Assembly: GCA_001776935.1 (NCBI GenBank)
Contig: MFDN01000008.1
Coordinates: forward strand, 8,998 to 72,997
Reading direction: 5' to 3'
Source of the DNA: Candidatus Daviesbacteria bacterium RIFCSPLOWO2_01_FULL_39_23
GTDB taxonomy: Bacteria; Patescibacteriota; Microgenomatia; Daviesbacterales; UBA10151
Length of the DNA: 64,000 nt
The notes under the pieces were generated by a model that searched no databases, was not told the origin of the DNA, and saw nothing but the letters and a program-made list of their open reading frames with translations. Below, piece after piece: positions 24,585 to 31,188 of this stretch. The number at the start of each line of letters is the position of its first letter. Position 1 is the stretch's first letter. The translations under genes and the position numbers were made by a program.

Positions 24585-26152
24585 TAATACTTGTAGATTT
24601 TGGATCACAAACAGCACATTTAATAGCAAGAAGGATAAAAGAGTTGGGAACAGAAGTGGAAGTGGTAGACCCTGAAGGAGCGATGGATATATTGGATTCC
24701 CGCTTTCGCGGAAATGACAGAAGAAGAAGCGGGAATGACAAGGGTGCAAAGGGGATAATTTTTTCCGGCGGCCCGGCATCTGTATATCAGGAAGACTCGC
24801 CTTCAATTGATCCGAAAATTTTTATGATTGGTATTCCGATATTGGGAATTTGTTACGGACAGCAATTGATGTGCCACCTTTTAGGCGGAGAGGTAAAAGC
24901 GGGGTTTAAGAAAGAGTATGGACCGGCAGTATTAAGTTCAAAGTTAAAAGTTAAAAGTTCAAAATTATTGGTAGGGGTGCCAAGCGGAATTACGGTTTGG
25001 ATGAGTCACGGGGATGAGGTGGTAAAGATTCCTCAGGGTTTTGAAACTAAGGCTTTTACGAAAACAATTCCTCATGCAGTAATTGAAAATAAAGATAAAA
25101 AAATATACGGGATACAATTTCATCCGGAGGTAATACACACGGAATTCGGAGAACAGCTTTTGGAAAACTTCCTAAAAATATGCAATCTTGAAATTAAAAG
25201 AAGAGTGATTAATAAAGAGTTTGTAGAAAATATTATCAAAGATATTAAAGATTCTGTGGGAGAGGAAAAAGCAATTTGTGCTTTATCCGGGGGAGTAGAT
25301 TCATCAGTTGCTGCATTACTTGTACACAAAGCAATCGGCAGAAATTTAATTTCCTGCTACATTGATTCAGGGTTGATGAGAGACGGGGAAACTTCTGCTT
25401 TAAGAAAAATTTTTCAAAAAGATTATCAAATGGGTATTCAAATTATTGATGCAAAAAATGAATTTTTAGATTCCTTAAAAGGAGTAATTGATCCGGAAGA
25501 AAAAAGAAAAAAGATCGGGAAAGCTTTTATAGATGTTTTTGAAAAAATTGCTAAAAAAAGCAGGGCAAAACTTTTGGTGCAGGGGACAATTTATCCTGAT
25601 GTGATAGAGTCTGCAGGAACTAAGCATTCGCAGGTTATAAAATCGCACCATAATGTCGGCGCACTCCCAAAGAATATGAACCTTGCGCTAATTGAACCAT
25701 TAAGAAATTTCTATAAAGATGAAGTAAGAGCAATCGGTAAAATTTTAGGTCTGCCGGATGAAATTATCAACAGACAGCCTTTCCCGGGTCCCGGACTGGC
25801 AGTCAGAATTATAGGAGACGTAACAGAAGAAAAACTTGAGATTTTAAGAAAAGCCGATAAAGTTATTCAGGAGGAAATAAAAAAGACTGATCTGGAAAAA
25901 AGCCTTTGGCAAATCTTTGCAGTATTTACCGGAATTAAAACTACAGGAGTCAGGGGAGATGAAAGGGCGTATGGAGAAACTATTGCCATAAGAGCAATAG
26001 AAGCCAAAGATGCCATGAGTGCAAATTTTGCCAAACTTCCATATGAACTATTGGAGAGAATTTCCTCAAGAATTGTTAATGAAATCCGTGAGGTAAACCG
26101 GGTAGTTTACGATATCACCAACAAACCTCCCGCTACTATGGAGTGGGAGTAG
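24581..26152 (+). CDS. guaA: GMP synthase (glutamine-hydrolysing)
   Basis: GATase domain, ATP-PPase SGGVDSSV motif and a C-terminal dimerisation domain. ATGA overlap with purQ. Confidence 0.9.
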   Translation: MIILVDFGSQTAHLIARRIKELGTEVEVVDPEGAMDILDSRFRGNDRRRSGNDKGAKGIIFSGGPASVYQEDSPSIDPKIFMIGIPILGICYGQQLMCHLLGGEVKAGFKKEYGPAVLSSKLKVKSSKLLVGVPSGITVWMSHGDEVVKIPQGFETKAFTKTIPHAVIENKDKKIYGIQFHPEVIHTEFGEQLLENFLKICNLEIKRRVINKEFVENIIKDIKDSVGEEKAICALSGGVDSSVAALLVHKAIGRNLISCYIDSGLMRDGETSALRKIFQKDYQMGIQIIDAKNEFLDSLKGVIDPEEKRKKIGKAFIDVFEKIAKKSRAKLLVQGTIYPDVIESAGTKHSQVIKSHHNVGALPKNMNLALIEPLRNFYKDEVRAIGKILGLPDEIINRQPFPGPGLAVRIIGDVTEEKLEILRKADKVIQEEIKKTDLEKSLWQIFAVFTGIKTTGVRGDERAYGETIAIRAIEAKDAMSANFAKLPYELLERISSRIVNEIREVNRVVYDITNKPPATMEWE

Positions 26153-26199
26153 AGAAGATGGTTTGCATCAATTTCAATTGTGTTAAATTATCGGAGAAT

Positions 26200-26235
26200 G
26201 GTTACAATTAATCGCTCGAGCGACTGGTTGTAACC
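26200..26235. other. Nested perfect palindrome GGTTACAA-ttaa-TCGCTCGAGCGA-ctgg-TTGTAACC downstream of guaA
   Basis: An 8-bp inverted repeat encloses a 12-bp perfect palindrome. It is GC-rich in an AT-rich context. Possible terminator or protein-binding site. Confidence 0.3.
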
Positions 26236-26264
26236 GTAGTAAAAGATAAAAATTTGGCAGATTG

Positions 26265-27325
26265 TCTAGGATCCGATACATTCCGTACACTTAAGACATT
26301 TAATTGAACGGCAGATATAATGGCTGCTACATGAGAGCCTACAAGATACTCCCGGTAGAGATTAAAGTTAGGGATTTCAAACTATCCAAGAAAGCTTTAA
26401 AAAGATTGGAGTGGATGGATTGGTATTTTAGCCATGGCATGAATGCCAGGTTAACATGCAGACACTTTGGAATCTCCCCAGATACCTTCTACCTCTGGAA
26501 GAGGAAATTTAATCCATATAACTTAAGTACACTTGAATTCAATACTAAACTCTGTACTCCTCACAACCTCCGGGAGATGACTACAAGTCCAAAGGTGCTT
26601 AAGCTGATATATGACATTAGGTCAAATGATTTAACCAAATCCAAGTATGAAATTGAGGAAGAGTTAAAAAGGTCAGGCATTAAAATCTCATCCAAAGTAA
26701 TCCAGAAAGTCATTAACAGACATATTGAGCTTAAAAACACTGAGCATATTAGAAAGATTAGAAAATACAGGAATTACAAGATAGCCAGGGTTAAAGCTGC
26801 ATTGGAGCTTAAAGAGAAAGATTTAGGATCACTGGTTCAGATTGATACCAAACACCTGTATATTTTAGGACAGAGATTTTACATCTATGTAGCCATTGAT
26901 TGTAAATCCAGGTTAGGGTTTGTGTATGCATACAAATCATGCAACTCCACCAATGCAGCAGACTTCCTTTTAAAAGTCATTGACTACTTTCCATTCACAA
27001 TTTCAGCTGTTAATACAGACAACGGACCGGAGTATCTGCTTAAATTTCATGAGCTGACAGAGCAGTTAGGTATTCCTCACTACTTTACCCATCCCCATAC
27101 CCCTAAAATGAACTCCAGAGCTGAAAGGTTAATTAAGACACTGGAATATGAATTCCTTCATTACAGGGATCTTTTGCCTGAGCTTCAAGAAGTTAGAAAT
27201 ATATGCCCATGAGTTTAATGATCATTACAACAACCACAGATTCCACCAAGCCATCCACTACCAAACCCCCAGGGAGTATGTTACAAGTTACCTACAACAG
27301 AAAGGAGTGGTGTACGGTATCTAGG
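26265..27325 (+). mobile_element. IS481-family insertion sequence with 6-bp TCTAGG target-site duplications
   Basis: TCTAGG lies at 26265-26270 and again at 27320-27325. Imperfect terminal inverted repeats are present (..gatacattccgtacac / gtgtacggtatc). The element encodes one HTH + rve(DDE) transposase. Confidence 0.7.
26304..27324 (+). pseudogene. DDE transposase (rve integrase core), frameshifted near 27195-27215
   Basis: The 302-aa frame ends at RNICP*. The +1 frame continues with the canonical C-terminal motif (YAHEFNDHYNNHRFHQAIHYQTPREY) up to the TAG at 27322-27324. Confidence 0.55.
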
Positions 27326-27341
27326 GTTCCAGTACACAGAT

Positions 27342-28088
27342 TTGACAATACCCTATAGATTTGATAAGATACACGACAATATGATTGAAAGAGCTTTTAA
27401 TGAAGCATTACTACATAAAGGTAACAAAAAAGATGCACTTAGGGAATTTGCCATCTCTCAAGCAAGGCATATTCTTCAAGCTGCCGGCGTAGTTGATCCC
27501 GCAATTAAAGACCATGGAGTAGCCGTAAAACCTGAAGAATCAGTTGAAAAACCTTTTTACATGATCCCCGAAGGAGAAGTTGTTAAATTTATCCAAGAGA
27601 TCGGCGGTAAATCAGCGGAACAATTAGAGGCTGAAGTAAAATCTACCGGAAGGGAAGTCACTATATATGCTTCTGATTCGATTCATAGTCCTAAATTTGA
27701 AGTTCTTGATGAAGTTACTCCTCAAGAGTTAGCTAAATTTCCTGTTAGAGCCTTAAGATTCAGAGGTAATCCAACTACCAGACAATTATATGAAAAAATC
27801 CCGCAAACCAGATGTAGAATAGATGGAGAGGAATATATATTAGAACTTCCTAGAGCAGAAGTTGGACCCCACAAAGCTATAGCAGATAAAGACCAAGCTT
27901 TAAATGATTGGTATTATGTTATGCATGAGCCGATTACCGGCCGTCACGGCGATCCGGGCGTGTTCGAGGTCGGACGCAATTCTGATGGCCGGTTCCTCTA
28001 CGGCCCATGGGCTAGCCCTGACGACAGGTGGGCTCCTGACGATCAGTTGGTTGTGGCTCTCCGCAAGCTTGAATCTGTAAAACCTTAA
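27342..28088 (+). CDS. DGR target (variable) protein; its C-terminal 45 aa are encoded by the VR
   Basis: 248-aa ORF with a TTG start. The VR occupies codons 198-242. No signal peptide is seen. The gene begins 17 nt after the IS element. Confidence 0.75.
   Translation: MTIPYRFDKIHDNMIERAFNEALLHKGNKKDALREFAISQARHILQAAGVVDPAIKDHGVAVKPEESVEKPFYMIPEGEVVKFIQEIGGKSAEQLEAEVKSTGREVTIYASDSIHSPKFEVLDEVTPQELAKFPVRALRFRGNPTTRQLYEKIPQTRCRIDGEEYILELPRAEVGPHKAIADKDQALNDWYYVMHEPITGRHGDPGVFEVGRNSDGRFLYGPWASPDDRWAPDDQLVVALRKLESVKP
27933..28067 (+). repeat. DGR variable repeat (VR), 135 bp
   Basis: 116/135 identity to the TR. All 19 mismatches fall at TR adenines. Confidence 0.85.
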
Positions 28089-28409
28089 ACTCTTTGATTC
28101 TTACAATTAAAGAGTACTCTTTGAGTTTTTAATACTTTGTTTCTTTACCGCGTAGCGGCCGCTACAAATTTTTGATATATTACTTTTAGATTGGTTGTAT
28201 TGAACGGCTACGGCTTTTCAAAATCATTTTGGCAAATATATATTGAGAGCTTAGAAGGTTAAGGCTTTCTGGGGAGTAATAGTATTTGTCTTTAAAAAAG
28301 AATTACTTGGTATGGTATGCTTGCAGGATTTATTCCGCAAATAAAATACAGCCCTTTGTCTAAAGATTAGCTTTTTACATGGGCAGTGATAATAGATGGC
28401 ATATCATAC

Positions 28410-28544
28410 ATTACCGACCGTAACGGCAATCCGAACGTGTTCAAGGTCGAACACAATTCTAATGGCCGGTTCCTAAACGGCAAATGGGCTAACCCTGACA
28501 ACAGGTGGAATCCTGACAATCAGTTGGTTGTGGCTCTCCGAAAG
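28410..28544 (+). repeat. DGR template repeat (TR), 135 bp
   Basis: Non-coding copy of the VR. The variable positions are A, mostly in AAY codon contexts of the VR frame. Confidence 0.85.
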
Positions 28545-28871
28545 TTATTCTTTTCCCCGCTTTATTGGCGGGGTTTTTGTTGGTATTTCAAGGCTTTTTT
28601 TCCAGCCGTAAAGCATTTTACCAATTTCATCCAGTTTAGTGGACATACTCTCATATTGTCTATTAGAAATGAATTTTCCTTCCCAACAAGTTGTGACTAG
28701 AAATTTAAGTATATCTGCTGTAAAAATACATTCACTTAATAAGACTAATTTTTTATCCTTACCACTAAAATATGATGTGTATGAACTTTCCAGAAGATCA
28801 AGGAATTTATTTTCAATTCTTATACCCAGCGTGTAACGGGCAGTTCTAGGAATATGAGGCACAATACCCAT
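28545..28871 (-). CDS. avd: Avd-like four-helix-bundle DGR accessory protein
   Basis: About 108 aa from MGIVPHIPRTARYTLG... to ...KLDEIGKMLYGWKKSLE. This matches the four-helix-bundle/Avd (23S rRNA IVS protein) family pattern. It is encoded on the opposite strand to the VR, TR and RT. Confidence 0.6.
   Translation of the reverse strand: MGIVPHIPRTARYTLGIRIENKFLDLLESSYTSYFSGKDKKLVLLSECIFTADILKFLVTTCWEGKFISNRQYESMSTKLDEIGKMLYGWKKSLEIPTKTPPIKRGKE
28555..28580 (+). terminator. Rho-independent terminator-like hairpin immediately after the TR
   Basis: CCCCGC-tttattg-GCGGGG followed by TTTTTGTTGG. Confidence 0.5.
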
Positions 28872-28916
28872 CCAAAACAGATATCCCTCTTTGATTTTAC
28901 TGAGGATCGAGGTTTT

Positions 28917-28938
28917 AGAGAGAGAGAGAGAGAGAGAG
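28917..28938. repeat. (AG)11 dinucleotide microsatellite in the divergent avd/RT intergenic region
   Basis: agagagagagagagagagagag read directly. Confidence 0.9.
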
Positions 28939-28979
28939 TACGAAGACCGTGCCATATTAAATTTAATAGTATCATCTCT

Positions 28980-31188
<2,209 letters not shown>

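What the first reader, a model, noticed from the sequence alone, without database searches (positions are those of the whole stretch)
26265..27325. IS481-family element with CTAG-containing 6-bp target duplications, frameshifted transposase, inserted inside the purine operon immediately upstream of the DGR target gene
TCTAGG is present at 26265-26270 and again at 27320-27325. This flanks a roughly 1.05-kb segment with imperfect terminal inverted repeats and a single HTH + DDE (rve) transposase. IS481-family elements are known to insert at NCTAGN and make 6-bp duplications, which fits.

The transposase reading frame breaks near 27200, and the conserved C-terminal motif continues in the +1 frame. 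The element is therefore probably inactive, or the break is a sequencing error.

The DGR target gene starts 17 nt after the right end. It may be driven from, or have been truncated by, the IS. Together with the DGR, the IS forms a roughly 3.7-kb accessory island between guaA and purA.
Basis: partly seen in the sequence, partly recalled or inferred. Interest (0 to 1): 0.55.

Follow-up and report, generated by a model that had tools for sequence, protein, structure and literature searches.

The report
Dead promoter-seeking insertion sequence beside DGR
This is a broken copy of a small jumping gene from Candidatus Daviesbacteria. The copy itself is ordinary, but about 77 related copies all sit exactly five bases upstream of a gene's promoter, a targeting habit I found described nowhere.

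Summary
The two TCTAGG hexamers, the HTH+DDE transposase and the frameshift are all real. The hexamers are not target duplications. They lie inside the element's terminal inverted repeats and are conserved in about 100 related copies at unrelated sites.

The true element is 26263-27336 (1074 bp) with TGT...ACA ends. It is flanked by a 5-bp duplication, CAGAT (26258-62 and 27337-41). It is a divergent IS481-like insertion sequence of Candidatus Daviesbacteria and other CPR bacteria.

One extra C at 27206-08 breaks the transposase. The same break is present in three separate assemblies, so it is a real inactivating mutation.

Relatives have guaA and purA abutting, so the IS plus DGR is a 3.76-kb accessory island.

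The main result is unexpected. At 77 independent sites, the right end of this IS clade is followed by 5 nt and then TTGACA-N17-TAnnnT, usually with a leaderless ATG. The clade therefore inserts, in one orientation, exactly upstream of sigma-70 -35 boxes. In this window the box belongs to the DGR target gene's own promoter (TTGACA 27342, TAAGAT 27365, ATG 27381). The gene is therefore neither truncated by the IS nor dependent on it for a promoter.

I found no earlier description of such targeting.

The parts
26258..26262 (+). Left copy of the 5-bp target-site duplication, CAGAT
   Evidence: Identical 5-mer directly outside both ends, which were defined from about 100 homologous copies. Chance of a match at fixed junctions is 1 in 1024.
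26263..26290 (+). Left terminal inverted repeat (TGTCTAGGATCCGATACATTCCGTACAC). It contains the first TCTAGG (26265-70).
   Evidence: The sequence from 26263 onward is identical in copies at other sites (L001-L006, L020-22, L037). TCTAGG is at positions 3-8 in 101 of 104 copies.
26293..26321 (+). The transposase's own promoter: AAGACA, 17 nt, TATAAT. ATG 26331 lies 9 nt after the -10 box.
   Evidence: Best-scoring promoter match in the region (10 of 12). This stretch is conserved across the clade.
26331..27212 (+). Transposase reading frame up to the premature stop (293 aa). It holds the HTH_28 domain and the rve core, with D172, D230 and E265.
   Evidence: Pfam result. Alignment A1 to intact 330-aa relatives.
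27206..27208 (+). CCC run holding one extra C, which causes the frameshift
   Evidence: Relatives read ..I-C-x-E-F-N.., and removing one C gives ICHEFN and 330 aa. The same CCC is present in three assemblies.
27208..27324 (+). C-terminal transposase segment, in the +1 frame (HEFNDHYNNHRFHQAIHYQTPREYV...). Its stop codon, TAG 27322-24, lies in the right repeat.
   Evidence: rve_2/rve_3 match. These residues are invariant in alignment A1.
27310..27336 (-). Right terminal inverted repeat (reverse complement TGTACTGGAACCCTAGATACCGTACAC). It contains the second TCTAGG (27320-25).
   Evidence: (I18). The end ...CCAGTACA is conserved in copies at other sites.
27337..27341 (+). Right copy of the 5-bp target-site duplication, CAGAT
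27342..27370 (+). Native promoter of the DGR target gene: -35 TTGACA (27342-47), 17-nt spacer, TG-extended -10 TAAGAT (27365-70). This is the target feature next to which the IS inserted.
   Evidence: 10 of 12 match. The same promoter stands before homologous genes without an IS (L122, L125-127). The position matches the clade-wide pattern at 77 sites.
27381..28088 (+). DGR target gene (235 aa), nearly leaderless. Variable region at 27933-28067.
   Evidence: Gene calls in independent assemblies start here. Homologues start at M-I/L-E-R-A-F. VR/TR comparison.
28410..28544 (+). DGR template repeat
   Evidence: 135-nt match to the variable region with 19 mismatches, all at TR adenines
26153..29910 (.). 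Accessory island (IS + DGR target + TR + Avd + RT) between the convergent guaA and purA genes
   Evidence: guaA and purA are 0-1 nt apart in L118 and L121. L119/L120 carry an unrelated ORF at the same place.

Best explanation
**What it is**
- Window 26263-27336 is a single defective copy of a 1.07-kb IS481-like insertion sequence.
- Its clade is common in Candidatus Daviesbacteria and other Microgenomates (CPR bacteria).
- It has imperfect 27-28-nt inverted repeats that begin TGT and end ACA.
- An internal promoter drives a near-leaderless gene for one HTH-DDE transposase, 330 aa when intact.
- A 5-bp target duplication, CAGAT, flanks it.
- The two TCTAGG hexamers are conserved parts of the two ends. 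The right one contains the transposase stop codon.

**Why it is dead**
- One extra C (27206-08) removes the invariant last 38 residues of the transposase.
- This copy is therefore very probably unable to move by itself.
- Its ends are intact, so a related transposase could in principle still move it.

**How the clade works**
- Shown by comparison: at 77 independent sites the right end lies exactly one duplication length (5 nt, rarely 6) upstream of a TTGAC(A/T) -35 hexamer. A -10 box follows 17 nt later, often with an ATG 6-8 nt after that. The transposase gene always points the same way as the promoter.
- Inferred: during target capture the transposition complex recognises TTGAC on one side of a 5-bp staggered cut. 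It most likely does this by direct DNA recognition. The element therefore lands just upstream of the promoter core without destroying it, a 'safe haven'.
- Inferred from family knowledge and from one circular-junction contig: movement is probably copy-out-paste-in through a circle whose ends are joined by 5 nt.

**Order of events here**
- The DGR cassette came first, landing at the guaA|purA junction.
- The IS then inserted 5 bp upstream of the -35 box of the DGR target gene.
- It later decayed.
For: **Ends and duplication**
- Copies with nearly identical ends sit in different flanks.
- A perfect 5-bp repeat flanks 28 of 77 unique flank pairs, and a 6-bp repeat flanks 2 more.

**Target pattern (78 unique right flanks, 77 independent clusters)**
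- Counts at positions +6 to +10 after the right end: T 75, T 71, G 70, A 63, C 47. Position +11 is A or T in 68.
- Positions +29, +30 and +34 read T 59, A 64 and T 65.
- The spacer is 17 nt in 65 of 78.
- The -10 box matches at 4 of 6 or better in 68 of 78, against about 23 expected from shuffles.
- 25 of 43 downstream co-oriented ORFs start 4-12 nt after the -10 box.
- There is no motif in the left flank.

**The promoter belongs to the target gene, not the IS**
- The 17-nt spacers differ at every site.
- Homologous DGR target genes without an IS keep TTGACA-17/18-TAnnAT-10-ATG.

**Family**
- The IS481 model is the best hit and is matched over its full length, at 166-189 bits for the four intact relatives tested and 174 for the repaired window protein. 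IS3 scores 86-100.
- The spacing D-58-D-35-E is present in alignment A1.
- TGT..ACA ends and target duplications of 2-15 bp fit the family (PMC10045372).

**Frameshift**
- A single C relative to relatives accounts for it.
- The same sequence is present in L017, L018 and L019. L017 and L018 differ from the window at SNPs elsewhere.

**Circle or tandem junctions**
- L021 is a 1133-nt contig with a 55-nt terminal overlap, equal to a 1078-nt circle of IS plus 5 nt.
- L027 is a tandem pair whose spacer equals the flank.

**Island**.
Against: - The score against the IS481 model is below NCBI's cut-off of 224 bits, so the clade is a divergent branch.
- 47 of 77 flank pairs show no matching repeat. 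I attribute this to chimeric metagenome contigs across multicopy IS. The left flank of L011 matches the right repeat of L010, and the left flank of L013 matches the right repeat of L014. I have not shown this for all pairs.
- 10 of 78 sites lack TTG at the expected place.
- Purifying selection against insertions in genes must contribute to the strength of the -10 signal. How much is true specificity cannot be separated from sequence alone.
- No empty site exists for this very locus. The exact 24-mer gave 0 hits.
- No transposition has been observed.
- The literature check covered only the open-access library.
Confidence: 0.85

Rival explanations
1. First reader's model. This is a classical IS481-type element bounded at 26271-27319. 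It inserted at an NCTAGN site and duplicated the 6-bp TCTAGG.
For: TCTAGG is present on both sides of the transposase gene and is rare in the window. IS481 itself is known to use NCTAGN, and most family members make 6-bp duplications (PMC10045372).
Against: The same hexamers, and conserved sequence outside them (TG on the left, GTTCCAGTACA on the right), occur in about 100 copies in unrelated flanks. The two hexamers occupy non-equivalent positions in the repeats: 3-8 on the left and about 12-17 on the right. A true 5-bp duplication lies outside them.
Confidence: 0.02
2. Same element and same promoter association, but the target is read through a protein. The transposase is recruited by sigma-70 or RNA polymerase holoenzyme bound at promoters, as Ty3 is recruited by the Pol III machinery. 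The transposase does not read TTGAC itself.
For: The relative weights of the six -35 positions mirror sigma region 4 recognition (TTG > A > C > A). At 55 of 78 sites a strong -10 box sits at the spacing that sigma-70 prefers. Many sites have a leaderless start codon, so most targets are working promoters.
Against: 13 of 78 sites have TTG but only a weak -10 box. The -35 box at target sites is closer to consensus than the candidate -35 boxes before other genes of the window, where TTG is seen in only 6 of 28. That baseline is a noisy screen. This fits sequence read-out, or binding strength, equally well. There is no sigma-like domain in the transposase. Selection against genic insertions can create the -10 signal.
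Confidence: 0.2
3. There is no target specificity. Insertion is random, and only harmless insertions upstream of promoters survive in small, gene-dense CPR genomes.
For: CPR genomes are compact, so intergenic survivors are expected. The -10 signal could be a by-product of selection.
Against: Selection cannot explain a fixed distance to the base (5 nt in 28 pairs, 6 nt in 2, always abutting TTGAC). It cannot explain the single orientation or the lack of any signal in the left flank.
Confidence: 0.03
4. The frameshift is an assembly or sequencing error, and the window copy is an intact, active IS.
For: The change is a single base in a short homopolymer (CC to CCC). Both ends are identical to those of intact relatives.
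Against: The same CCC is present in three assemblies from different samples. L017 and L018 differ from the window by 2 and 17 SNPs elsewhere. All contigs that carry the identical GuaA have the 293-aa gene call. No intact protein more than 87% identical exists in 5.8 billion clusters.
Confidence: 0.06
5. The TTGACA-N17-TAnnnT promoter is part of the element, an outward-facing mobile promoter carried by the IS, and is not a feature of the target.
For: Many IS carry outward promoters or -35 boxes at their ends (general knowledge; PMC9330008 appeared).
Against: The promoter lies outside the target duplication. Its spacer and -10 sequence differ at all 77 sites. Homologous DGR target genes without any IS have the same promoter.
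Confidence: 0.01

Closest known systems
IS481 family (type element IS481 of Bordetella pertussis)
   Same: One transposase ORF with no programmed frameshift. N-terminal HTH plus an rve-type DDE core with 35 residues between the second D and the E. About 1 kb long. TGT...ACA termini. A short target duplication within the family range of 2-15 bp. IS481 is the best-scoring NCBIfam model and is matched end to end.
   Different: The score is below the curated cut-off (166-189 bits against 224). The duplication is 5 bp where most family members make 6 bp. The target is not NCTAGN: it is the 5 bp just upstream of TTGAC(A/T), on one side only and in one orientation. The hosts are CPR bacteria.
ISAba32 subgroup of the IS1202 family (targets XerCD recombination sites; bioRxiv 10.1101/2022.12.17.520857)
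   Same: A DDE transposase distantly related to IS481/IS3. TGT ends. A 5-6-bp duplication. Insertion always in one orientation and exactly one duplication length from a short conserved host site. Tandem insertions at the same site. Circles with a 5-bp junction. A 'safe haven' rationale.
   Different: The site recognised there is an xrs/dif site with the left IS end next to the XerC arm. Here it is the -35 hexamer of sigma-70 promoters with the right end next to it. No IS1202-type model matched the window's transposase.
IS3-family copy-out-paste-in elements (IS911, IS2; PMC3299598)
   Same: A related DDE core (second-best model, 86-100 bits), TGT ends, and evidence for abutted ends separated by a few bases (L021, L027).
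   Different: There is no two-ORF arrangement and no programmed -1 frameshift. The frameshift in the window is a +1 lesion absent from relatives.
Ty3 and Ty1 retrotransposons (Pol III promoter targeting) and Tn7 at attTn7
   Same: The functional logic is shared: integration at a fixed place next to a conserved host signal, so that genes are not disrupted.
   Different: These are unrelated or only distantly related machineries that use protein-mediated targeting. The resemblance is recalled from general knowledge and was not tested here.

Membership tests
IS481 family | The transposase matches the curated IS481 family model above its cut-off | tested here: inconclusive
   NF033577 is the best model and is matched over 1-283 of 284 positions, with E 6e-51. 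The score is 174 bits for the repaired window protein and 166-189 for intact relatives, against a cut-off of 224. IS3 scores only 86-100 bits against its cut-off of 160.
IS481 family | A single transposase ORF with no programmed frameshift (unlike IS3) | tested here: met
   Hundreds of relatives encode one uninterrupted protein of about 330 aa. The break in the window is one extra base.
IS481 family | Terminal inverted repeats beginning 5'-TGT and ending ACA-3', with a length of about 1 kb | tested here: met
   TGTCTAGG... at the left and ...CCAGTACA at the right. Length is 1074 bp here and 1053-1091 bp in the clade. Family feature taken from PMC10045372 and bioRxiv 10.1101/2022.12.17.520857.
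IS481 family | A short target duplication (2-15 bp; 6 bp in most members) | tested here: met
   5 bp in 28 unique flank pairs and 6 bp in 2. This is within the family range but is not the commonest length.
IS481 family | DDE catalytic triad in an rve (RNase H-like) core | tested here: met
   Pfam rve at E 3e-14. D172, D230 and E265 are invariant in A1, with D-35-E spacing. Catalysis itself was not tested.
IS481 itself (Bordetella type) | Insertion at NCTAGN with duplication of those 6 bp | tested here: not met
   The TCTAGG hexamers belong to the element's ends (101 of 104 left ends). The duplicated bases are CAGAT and have no sequence preference across sites.
IS3 family | Two overlapping ORFs joined by a programmed -1 frameshift, and a match to the IS3 model | tested here: not met
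   Relatives have one ORF. The IS3 model scores 86-100 bits against a cut-off of 160.
IS1202 family, ISAba32 subgroup | An IS1202-type transposase, with insertion next to XerCD sites | tested here: not met
   No ISNCY/IS1202 model appeared among the NCBIfam hits at E <= 0.01. The adjacent site is a -35 box, not an xrs site. Only the logic of targeting is shared.
Copy-out-paste-in elements (mechanistic class) | A circular or tandem intermediate with abutted ends separated by a flank-derived spacer | tested here: inconclusive
   L021 shows a 1078-nt circular assembly signature (IS plus 5 nt). L027 is a tandem pair whose spacer equals the flank. Repeated insertion at one promoter would give the same tandem structure, and no reads were examined.
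Diversity-generating retroelement (context of the finding) | A template/variable repeat pair differing only at template adenines, next to a reverse transcriptase and Avd | tested here: met
   TR 28410-28544 against VR 27933-28067: 19 mismatches, all at TR adenines. Genes matching RVT_1 and bAvd are adjacent.

The most novel reading that the evidence does not exclude
This IS481-like clade of CPR bacteria may be a true promoter-seeking transposon. Its transposition complex would be guided to transcription start regions by sigma-70/RNA polymerase bound at the promoter, or by a transposase domain that reads the -35 hexamer as sigma region 4 does. It would integrate one helical half-turn upstream of the -35 box. 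That would make it a bacterial counterpart of Ty3-type promoter targeting, and a natural marker of promoters in uncultured bacteria.
Probability: 0.2. Interest if true: 0.85.

Novelty: new variant of a known kind. Interest (0 to 1): 0.6.

Why it matters
The copy in the window is a dead insertion sequence, and its annotation only needs correcting: ends, duplication and the neighbouring gene's start.

The clade it belongs to matters more.
- **Target choice.** It shows an exact, oriented association with -35 promoter boxes at 77 independent sites. If this reflects target choice, it adds a new kind of site selection to the IS481/IS3 superfamily. The only close precedent I found is the Xer-site targeting of ISAba32-type elements.
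- **A testable system.** It gives a simple system for asking how a DDE transposase reads a 5-6-bp signal on one side of its cut.
- **Promoter marks in uncultured bacteria.** The insertion sites show that these Microgenomates use canonical TTGACA-17-TATAAT promoters, very often with leaderless messages.
- **Use of intact relatives.** They could be tried as tools that insert cargo just upstream of promoters.

Tried and rejected
- **Other copies or solo ends in the window:** none by tblastn or blastn.
- **Empty site of this locus:** the exact 24-mer AATTTGGCAGATTTGACAATACCC gave 0 hits in metagenome contigs. All contigs that carry the identical or 99% identical GuaA run into the IS.
- **Programmed frameshift:** rejected. 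Relatives have a single ORF. The required shift is +1 at UGC-CCA-UGA, where no re-pairing is possible (reasoning from the sequence).
- **Sigma region 4-like domain in the transposase N-terminus:** no Pfam hit even at E <= 10. Only transposase-type HTH families matched.
- **Avoidance of TTGAC inside the IS, as a sign of self-immunity:** not seen. There were 78 occurrences against about 74 expected in 74 distinct elements.
- **A motif or inverted TTGAC in the left flank:** none. GTCAA is present in 10 of 84 left flanks at scattered positions.
- **Baseline -35 strength of other promoters in the window:** the screen was too noisy to use as a control.
- **Homology between the DGR target protein and the ORF at the same junction in L119/L120:** none.
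- **Literature:** eight searches of the library found no report of an IS that targets -35 boxes.
Full report
**1. What is in the sequence**

TCTAGG occurs at 26265-26270 and 27320-27325. It is rare in the window: 6 matches on both strands against 23 expected from shuffles.

Between the two hexamers lies one transposase gene.
- An ORF from ATG 26331 to TGA 27210-12 (293 aa) carries HTH_28 and the rve integrase core (E 3e-14).
- A second ORF in the +1 frame runs to TAG 27322-24. It carries the rve_2/rve_3 C-terminal motif.
- So the hexamers, the HTH+DDE gene and the frame break are all real.

The window is part of MFCQ01000009.1 of assembly GCA_001776655.1. The closest GuaA and transposase relatives are labelled Candidatus Daviesbacteria, a CPR lineage.

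**2. The frameshift**

A search of 5.8 billion protein clusters found 976 relatives. The best is 87% identical. Almost all are single proteins of about 330 aa.
- In alignment A1 the relatives read ...EVR(K/N)I-C-x-EFN... Here the window has ATA TGC CCA TGA.
- A nucleotide alignment with the nearest intact elements shows exactly one extra base in the run CCC at 27206-08.
- Removing one C gives ICHEFN and a 330-aa protein.
- The truncated product keeps D172, D230 and E265. It loses about 38 residues that include eleven invariant positions, F296 to V318. The copy is therefore very probably inactive. This is an inference.
- The same CCC is present in two further assemblies from other samples. They differ from the window by 2 and 17 substitutions elsewhere. 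It is also implied by the 293-aa gene call on all contigs with identical GuaA. A random sequencing error is therefore unlikely.
- A programmed +1 shift is not credible. Relatives do not need one, and UGC-CCA-UGA offers no re-pairing.

**3. The true ends**

I fetched 16 copies through two intact relatives, 15 from species-representative genomes and 80 from metagenomes.
- Copies with near-identical ends sit in quite different flanks.
- Their shared sequence starts at TGTCTAGG..., two bases left of the first hexamer.
- It ends at ...CTAGGGTTCCAGTACA, eleven bases right of the second hexamer.
- TCTAGG occupies positions 3-8 of the left end in 101 of 104 copies. It lies within the last 26 nt of the right end in 83 of 106. 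On the right it overlaps the transposase stop codon.
- The hexamers therefore belong to the element. They are at non-equivalent positions of the two repeats, so they cannot be a target duplication.

The window element is 26263-27336, 1074 bp.
- Its inverted repeats are 26263-26290 and 27310-27336.
- Directly outside them is CAGAT on both sides, at 26258-62 and 27337-41.
- Across the clade a perfect 5-bp repeat flanks 28 of 77 unique flank pairs, and a 6-bp repeat flanks 2 more.
- The pairs without a repeat include demonstrable assembly chimeras. For example, the left flank of L011 carries the repeat found to the right of L010.

**4. Family**
- The repaired protein and four intact relatives match NCBI's IS481 model end to end. 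Scores are 166-189 bits for the intact relatives, 174 for the repaired window protein and 86-100 for IS3. All IS481 scores are below the curated cut-off of 224.
- The single ORF, the TGT...ACA ends, the length of about 1 kb and a duplication inside the family range of 2-15 bp fit the family as described in PMC10045372.
- I file it as a divergent IS481-like clade. It is not of the Bordetella IS481 type, because the NCTAGN/6-bp feature was tested and not met.
- The window copy is only 82-85% identical in DNA to the nearest intact elements. Its first ~50 and last ~25 nt are identical to theirs. It is a distinct, so far solitary, isoform with intact ends.

**5. The unexpected part: where the clade inserts**

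In 78 unique right flanks (77 independent by clustering), the bases after the right end behave as follows.

| Position after right end | Content |
|---|---|
| +1 to +5 (the duplication) | no preference |
| +6 to +11 | T 75, T 71, G 70, A 63, C 47, then A or T |
| +12 to +28 | unconserved spacer, 17 nt in 65 of 78 |
| +29 to +34 | T 59, A 64, n, n, n, T 65 |

- This is the logo of a sigma-70 promoter at a fixed distance from the IS.
- A -10 match of 4 of 6 or better is seen in 68 of 78 sites, against about 23 expected from shuffled flanks.
- 54 TTG-bearing sites have at least 200 nt of downstream sequence. Of these, 43 have a co-oriented ORF that starts within 150 nt.
- In 25 of those 43 the ORF starts 4-12 nt after the -10 box, with a peak at 6-8 nt. 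These are leaderless genes.
- The left flank has no motif.
- The one clear 6-bp duplication (L110) also abuts TTGAC. The cut next to the hexamer is therefore the fixed one.
- The spacers all differ. The promoters therefore belong to the targets, not to the IS.
- The transposase gene always points the same way as the promoter.
- The pattern holds from 87% down to 57% transposase identity. It appears in bins labelled Daviesbacteria, Levyibacteriota, Microgenomates and others.

**6. The window fits this pattern exactly**
- After the right end come CAGAT, then TTGACA (27342-47), 17 nt, TG-extended TAAGAT (27365-70), 10 nt, and ATG 27381. This is one of the two best promoter matches in the region.
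- The other is the transposase's own AAGACA-17-TATAAT (26293-26321).
- Independent gene calls start at 27381, giving 235 aa. Most homologues begin M-I/L-E-R-A-F.
- Homologous DGR target genes in other genomes have no IS but carry the same promoter. L122 reads CGCAC|TTGACA-17-TATTAT-10-ATG. L125-127 read GGAAT|TTGACA-18-TAATAT-10-ATG.
- The gene is therefore not truncated and owns its promoter. The IS displaced only what lay upstream of -35. It may add read-through transcripts, which is an inference.

**7. Context**
- The DGR is genuine. TR 28410-28544 and VR 27933-28067 differ at 19 positions, all TR adenines. Avd and reverse transcriptase genes are adjacent.
- In relatives with 82% and 77% identical GuaA, the convergent guaA and purA genes are 0-1 nt apart (L118, L121).
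- In a third relative an unrelated ORF with its own TTGACA promoter sits there (L119/L120).
- The IS is downstream of the last plus-strand purine gene and does not interrupt an operon.
- Given the targeting rule, the DGR must have arrived before the IS.

**8. Mechanism**
- Shown: the ends, the duplication, the orientation and the distance to the -35 box.
- Inferred: the transposition complex recognises TTGAC(A/T) on one side of a 5-bp staggered cut.
- Direct DNA read-out seems most likely to me. 13 sites have TTG with only a weak -10 box. The -35 box at targets is unusually close to consensus.
- Recruitment by promoter-bound sigma-70/RNA polymerase is not excluded. I give it about 0.2.
- Selection alone cannot give a fixed distance and a single orientation.
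- One 1133-nt contig with a 55-nt terminal overlap equals a 1078-nt circle of IS plus 5 nt. One tandem pair has a spacer that equals the flank. Both fit copy-out-paste-in as in IS3-type elements and ISKpn21. Repeated insertion at one promoter would give the same tandem structure.

**9. Comparison and novelty**

The closest precedent I could find is the ISAba32 subgroup of the IS1202 family.
- Those elements have TGT ends and 5-6-bp duplications.
- Insertion is always oriented and one duplication length from XerCD sites.
- Tandem insertions and a safe-haven rationale are described (bioRxiv 10.1101/2022.12.17.520857).
- Here the same logic is applied to the -35 box by an IS481-like transposase.

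Eight searches of the library found no description of -35 targeting. ISfinder could not be consulted.

The copy in the window is an ordinary dead IS. The clade's target rule is, as far as I can tell, a new variant of a known kind.

**10. Verdict**
- It is wrong on the ends, the duplication, the target rule and the relation to the DGR gene.
- Interest is 0.6. It rests on the promoter-targeting pattern and not on this copy.

Noticed in passing
L001-L116 (right flanks); window 27337-27381: Across 77 independent sites, the right end of this IS clade is followed by 5 nt and then TTGACA-N17-TAnnnT, often with a leaderless ATG. This points to oriented insertion exactly upstream of sigma-70 -35 boxes.
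   Followed up: yes
L021 (1-1133); L027 (1432-2640); L048 (~519); L103 (~523): L021 has a 55-nt terminal overlap and equals a 1078-nt circle of IS plus a 5-nt junction, AAAAC. L027 has two tandem copies separated by GATAAT, the same bases as the left flank. In L048 and L103 an IS right end lies 4-6 nt before the next left end. These are circle intermediates, tandem dimers or repeated hits on one promoter.
   Followed up: partly
window 24694-24740 (inside guaA): GuaA carries an in-frame insert of 12-15 aa (SRFRGNDRRRSGND). It is encoded by a GC-rich palindromic repeat (ATTCCCGCTTTCGCGGAAAT...GCGGGAATGAC). The insert is absent from the 82%-identical GuaA P0122. It looks like a small repeat element tolerated inside a housekeeping gene.
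   Followed up: partly
window 26200-26235: A near-perfect 18+18-nt palindrome (GGTTACAATTAATCGCTC/GAGCGACTGGTTGTAACC) lies between the guaA stop and the IS. No T-run follows it. Its role is unknown.
   Followed up: no
L119/L120 8588-9139: A related Daviesbacteria genome has a different accessory gene at the same guaA|purA junction. It encodes 178-183 aa with no Pfam match and no similarity to the DGR target, and it has its own TTGACA-17-TATGAT promoter. The junction seems to be a recurrent landing place.
   Followed up: partly
L125-L127 (e.g. L127 1733-2698): A homologous DGR in another genome has a different transposase gene (DDE_Tnp_1 type, 321 aa) inserted between its target gene and Avd. 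DGR cassettes of this type seem to attract IS elements repeatedly.
   Followed up: no
L122-L124 5001-5693: A homologue of the DGR target protein (P0250, 53% identical) has no reverse transcriptase or Avd gene within 5 kb. It may be a remote or orphan target.
   Followed up: no
L018 vs window ~27381-28955: One population variant has a 211-aa call for the target gene where the window has 235 aa, and a 134-aa Avd where the window has 136 aa. It differs by 17 substitutions and 2 gaps over 17.6 kb. I did not locate the differences.
   Followed up: no
window 12201, 26265, 27320, 27849, 28845, 30994: Five of the six TCTAGG matches in the 64-kb window fall between 26.2 and 31.0 kb, in or next to the accessory island. 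The hexamer is about four-fold under-represented overall.
   Followed up: no
L046 and L091 (contig Ga0209541_10000825, 35330-40008): Two members of the clade, from different lineages (75% and 62% identity to the window's transposase), lie within about 300 nt of each other on one contig.
   Followed up: no
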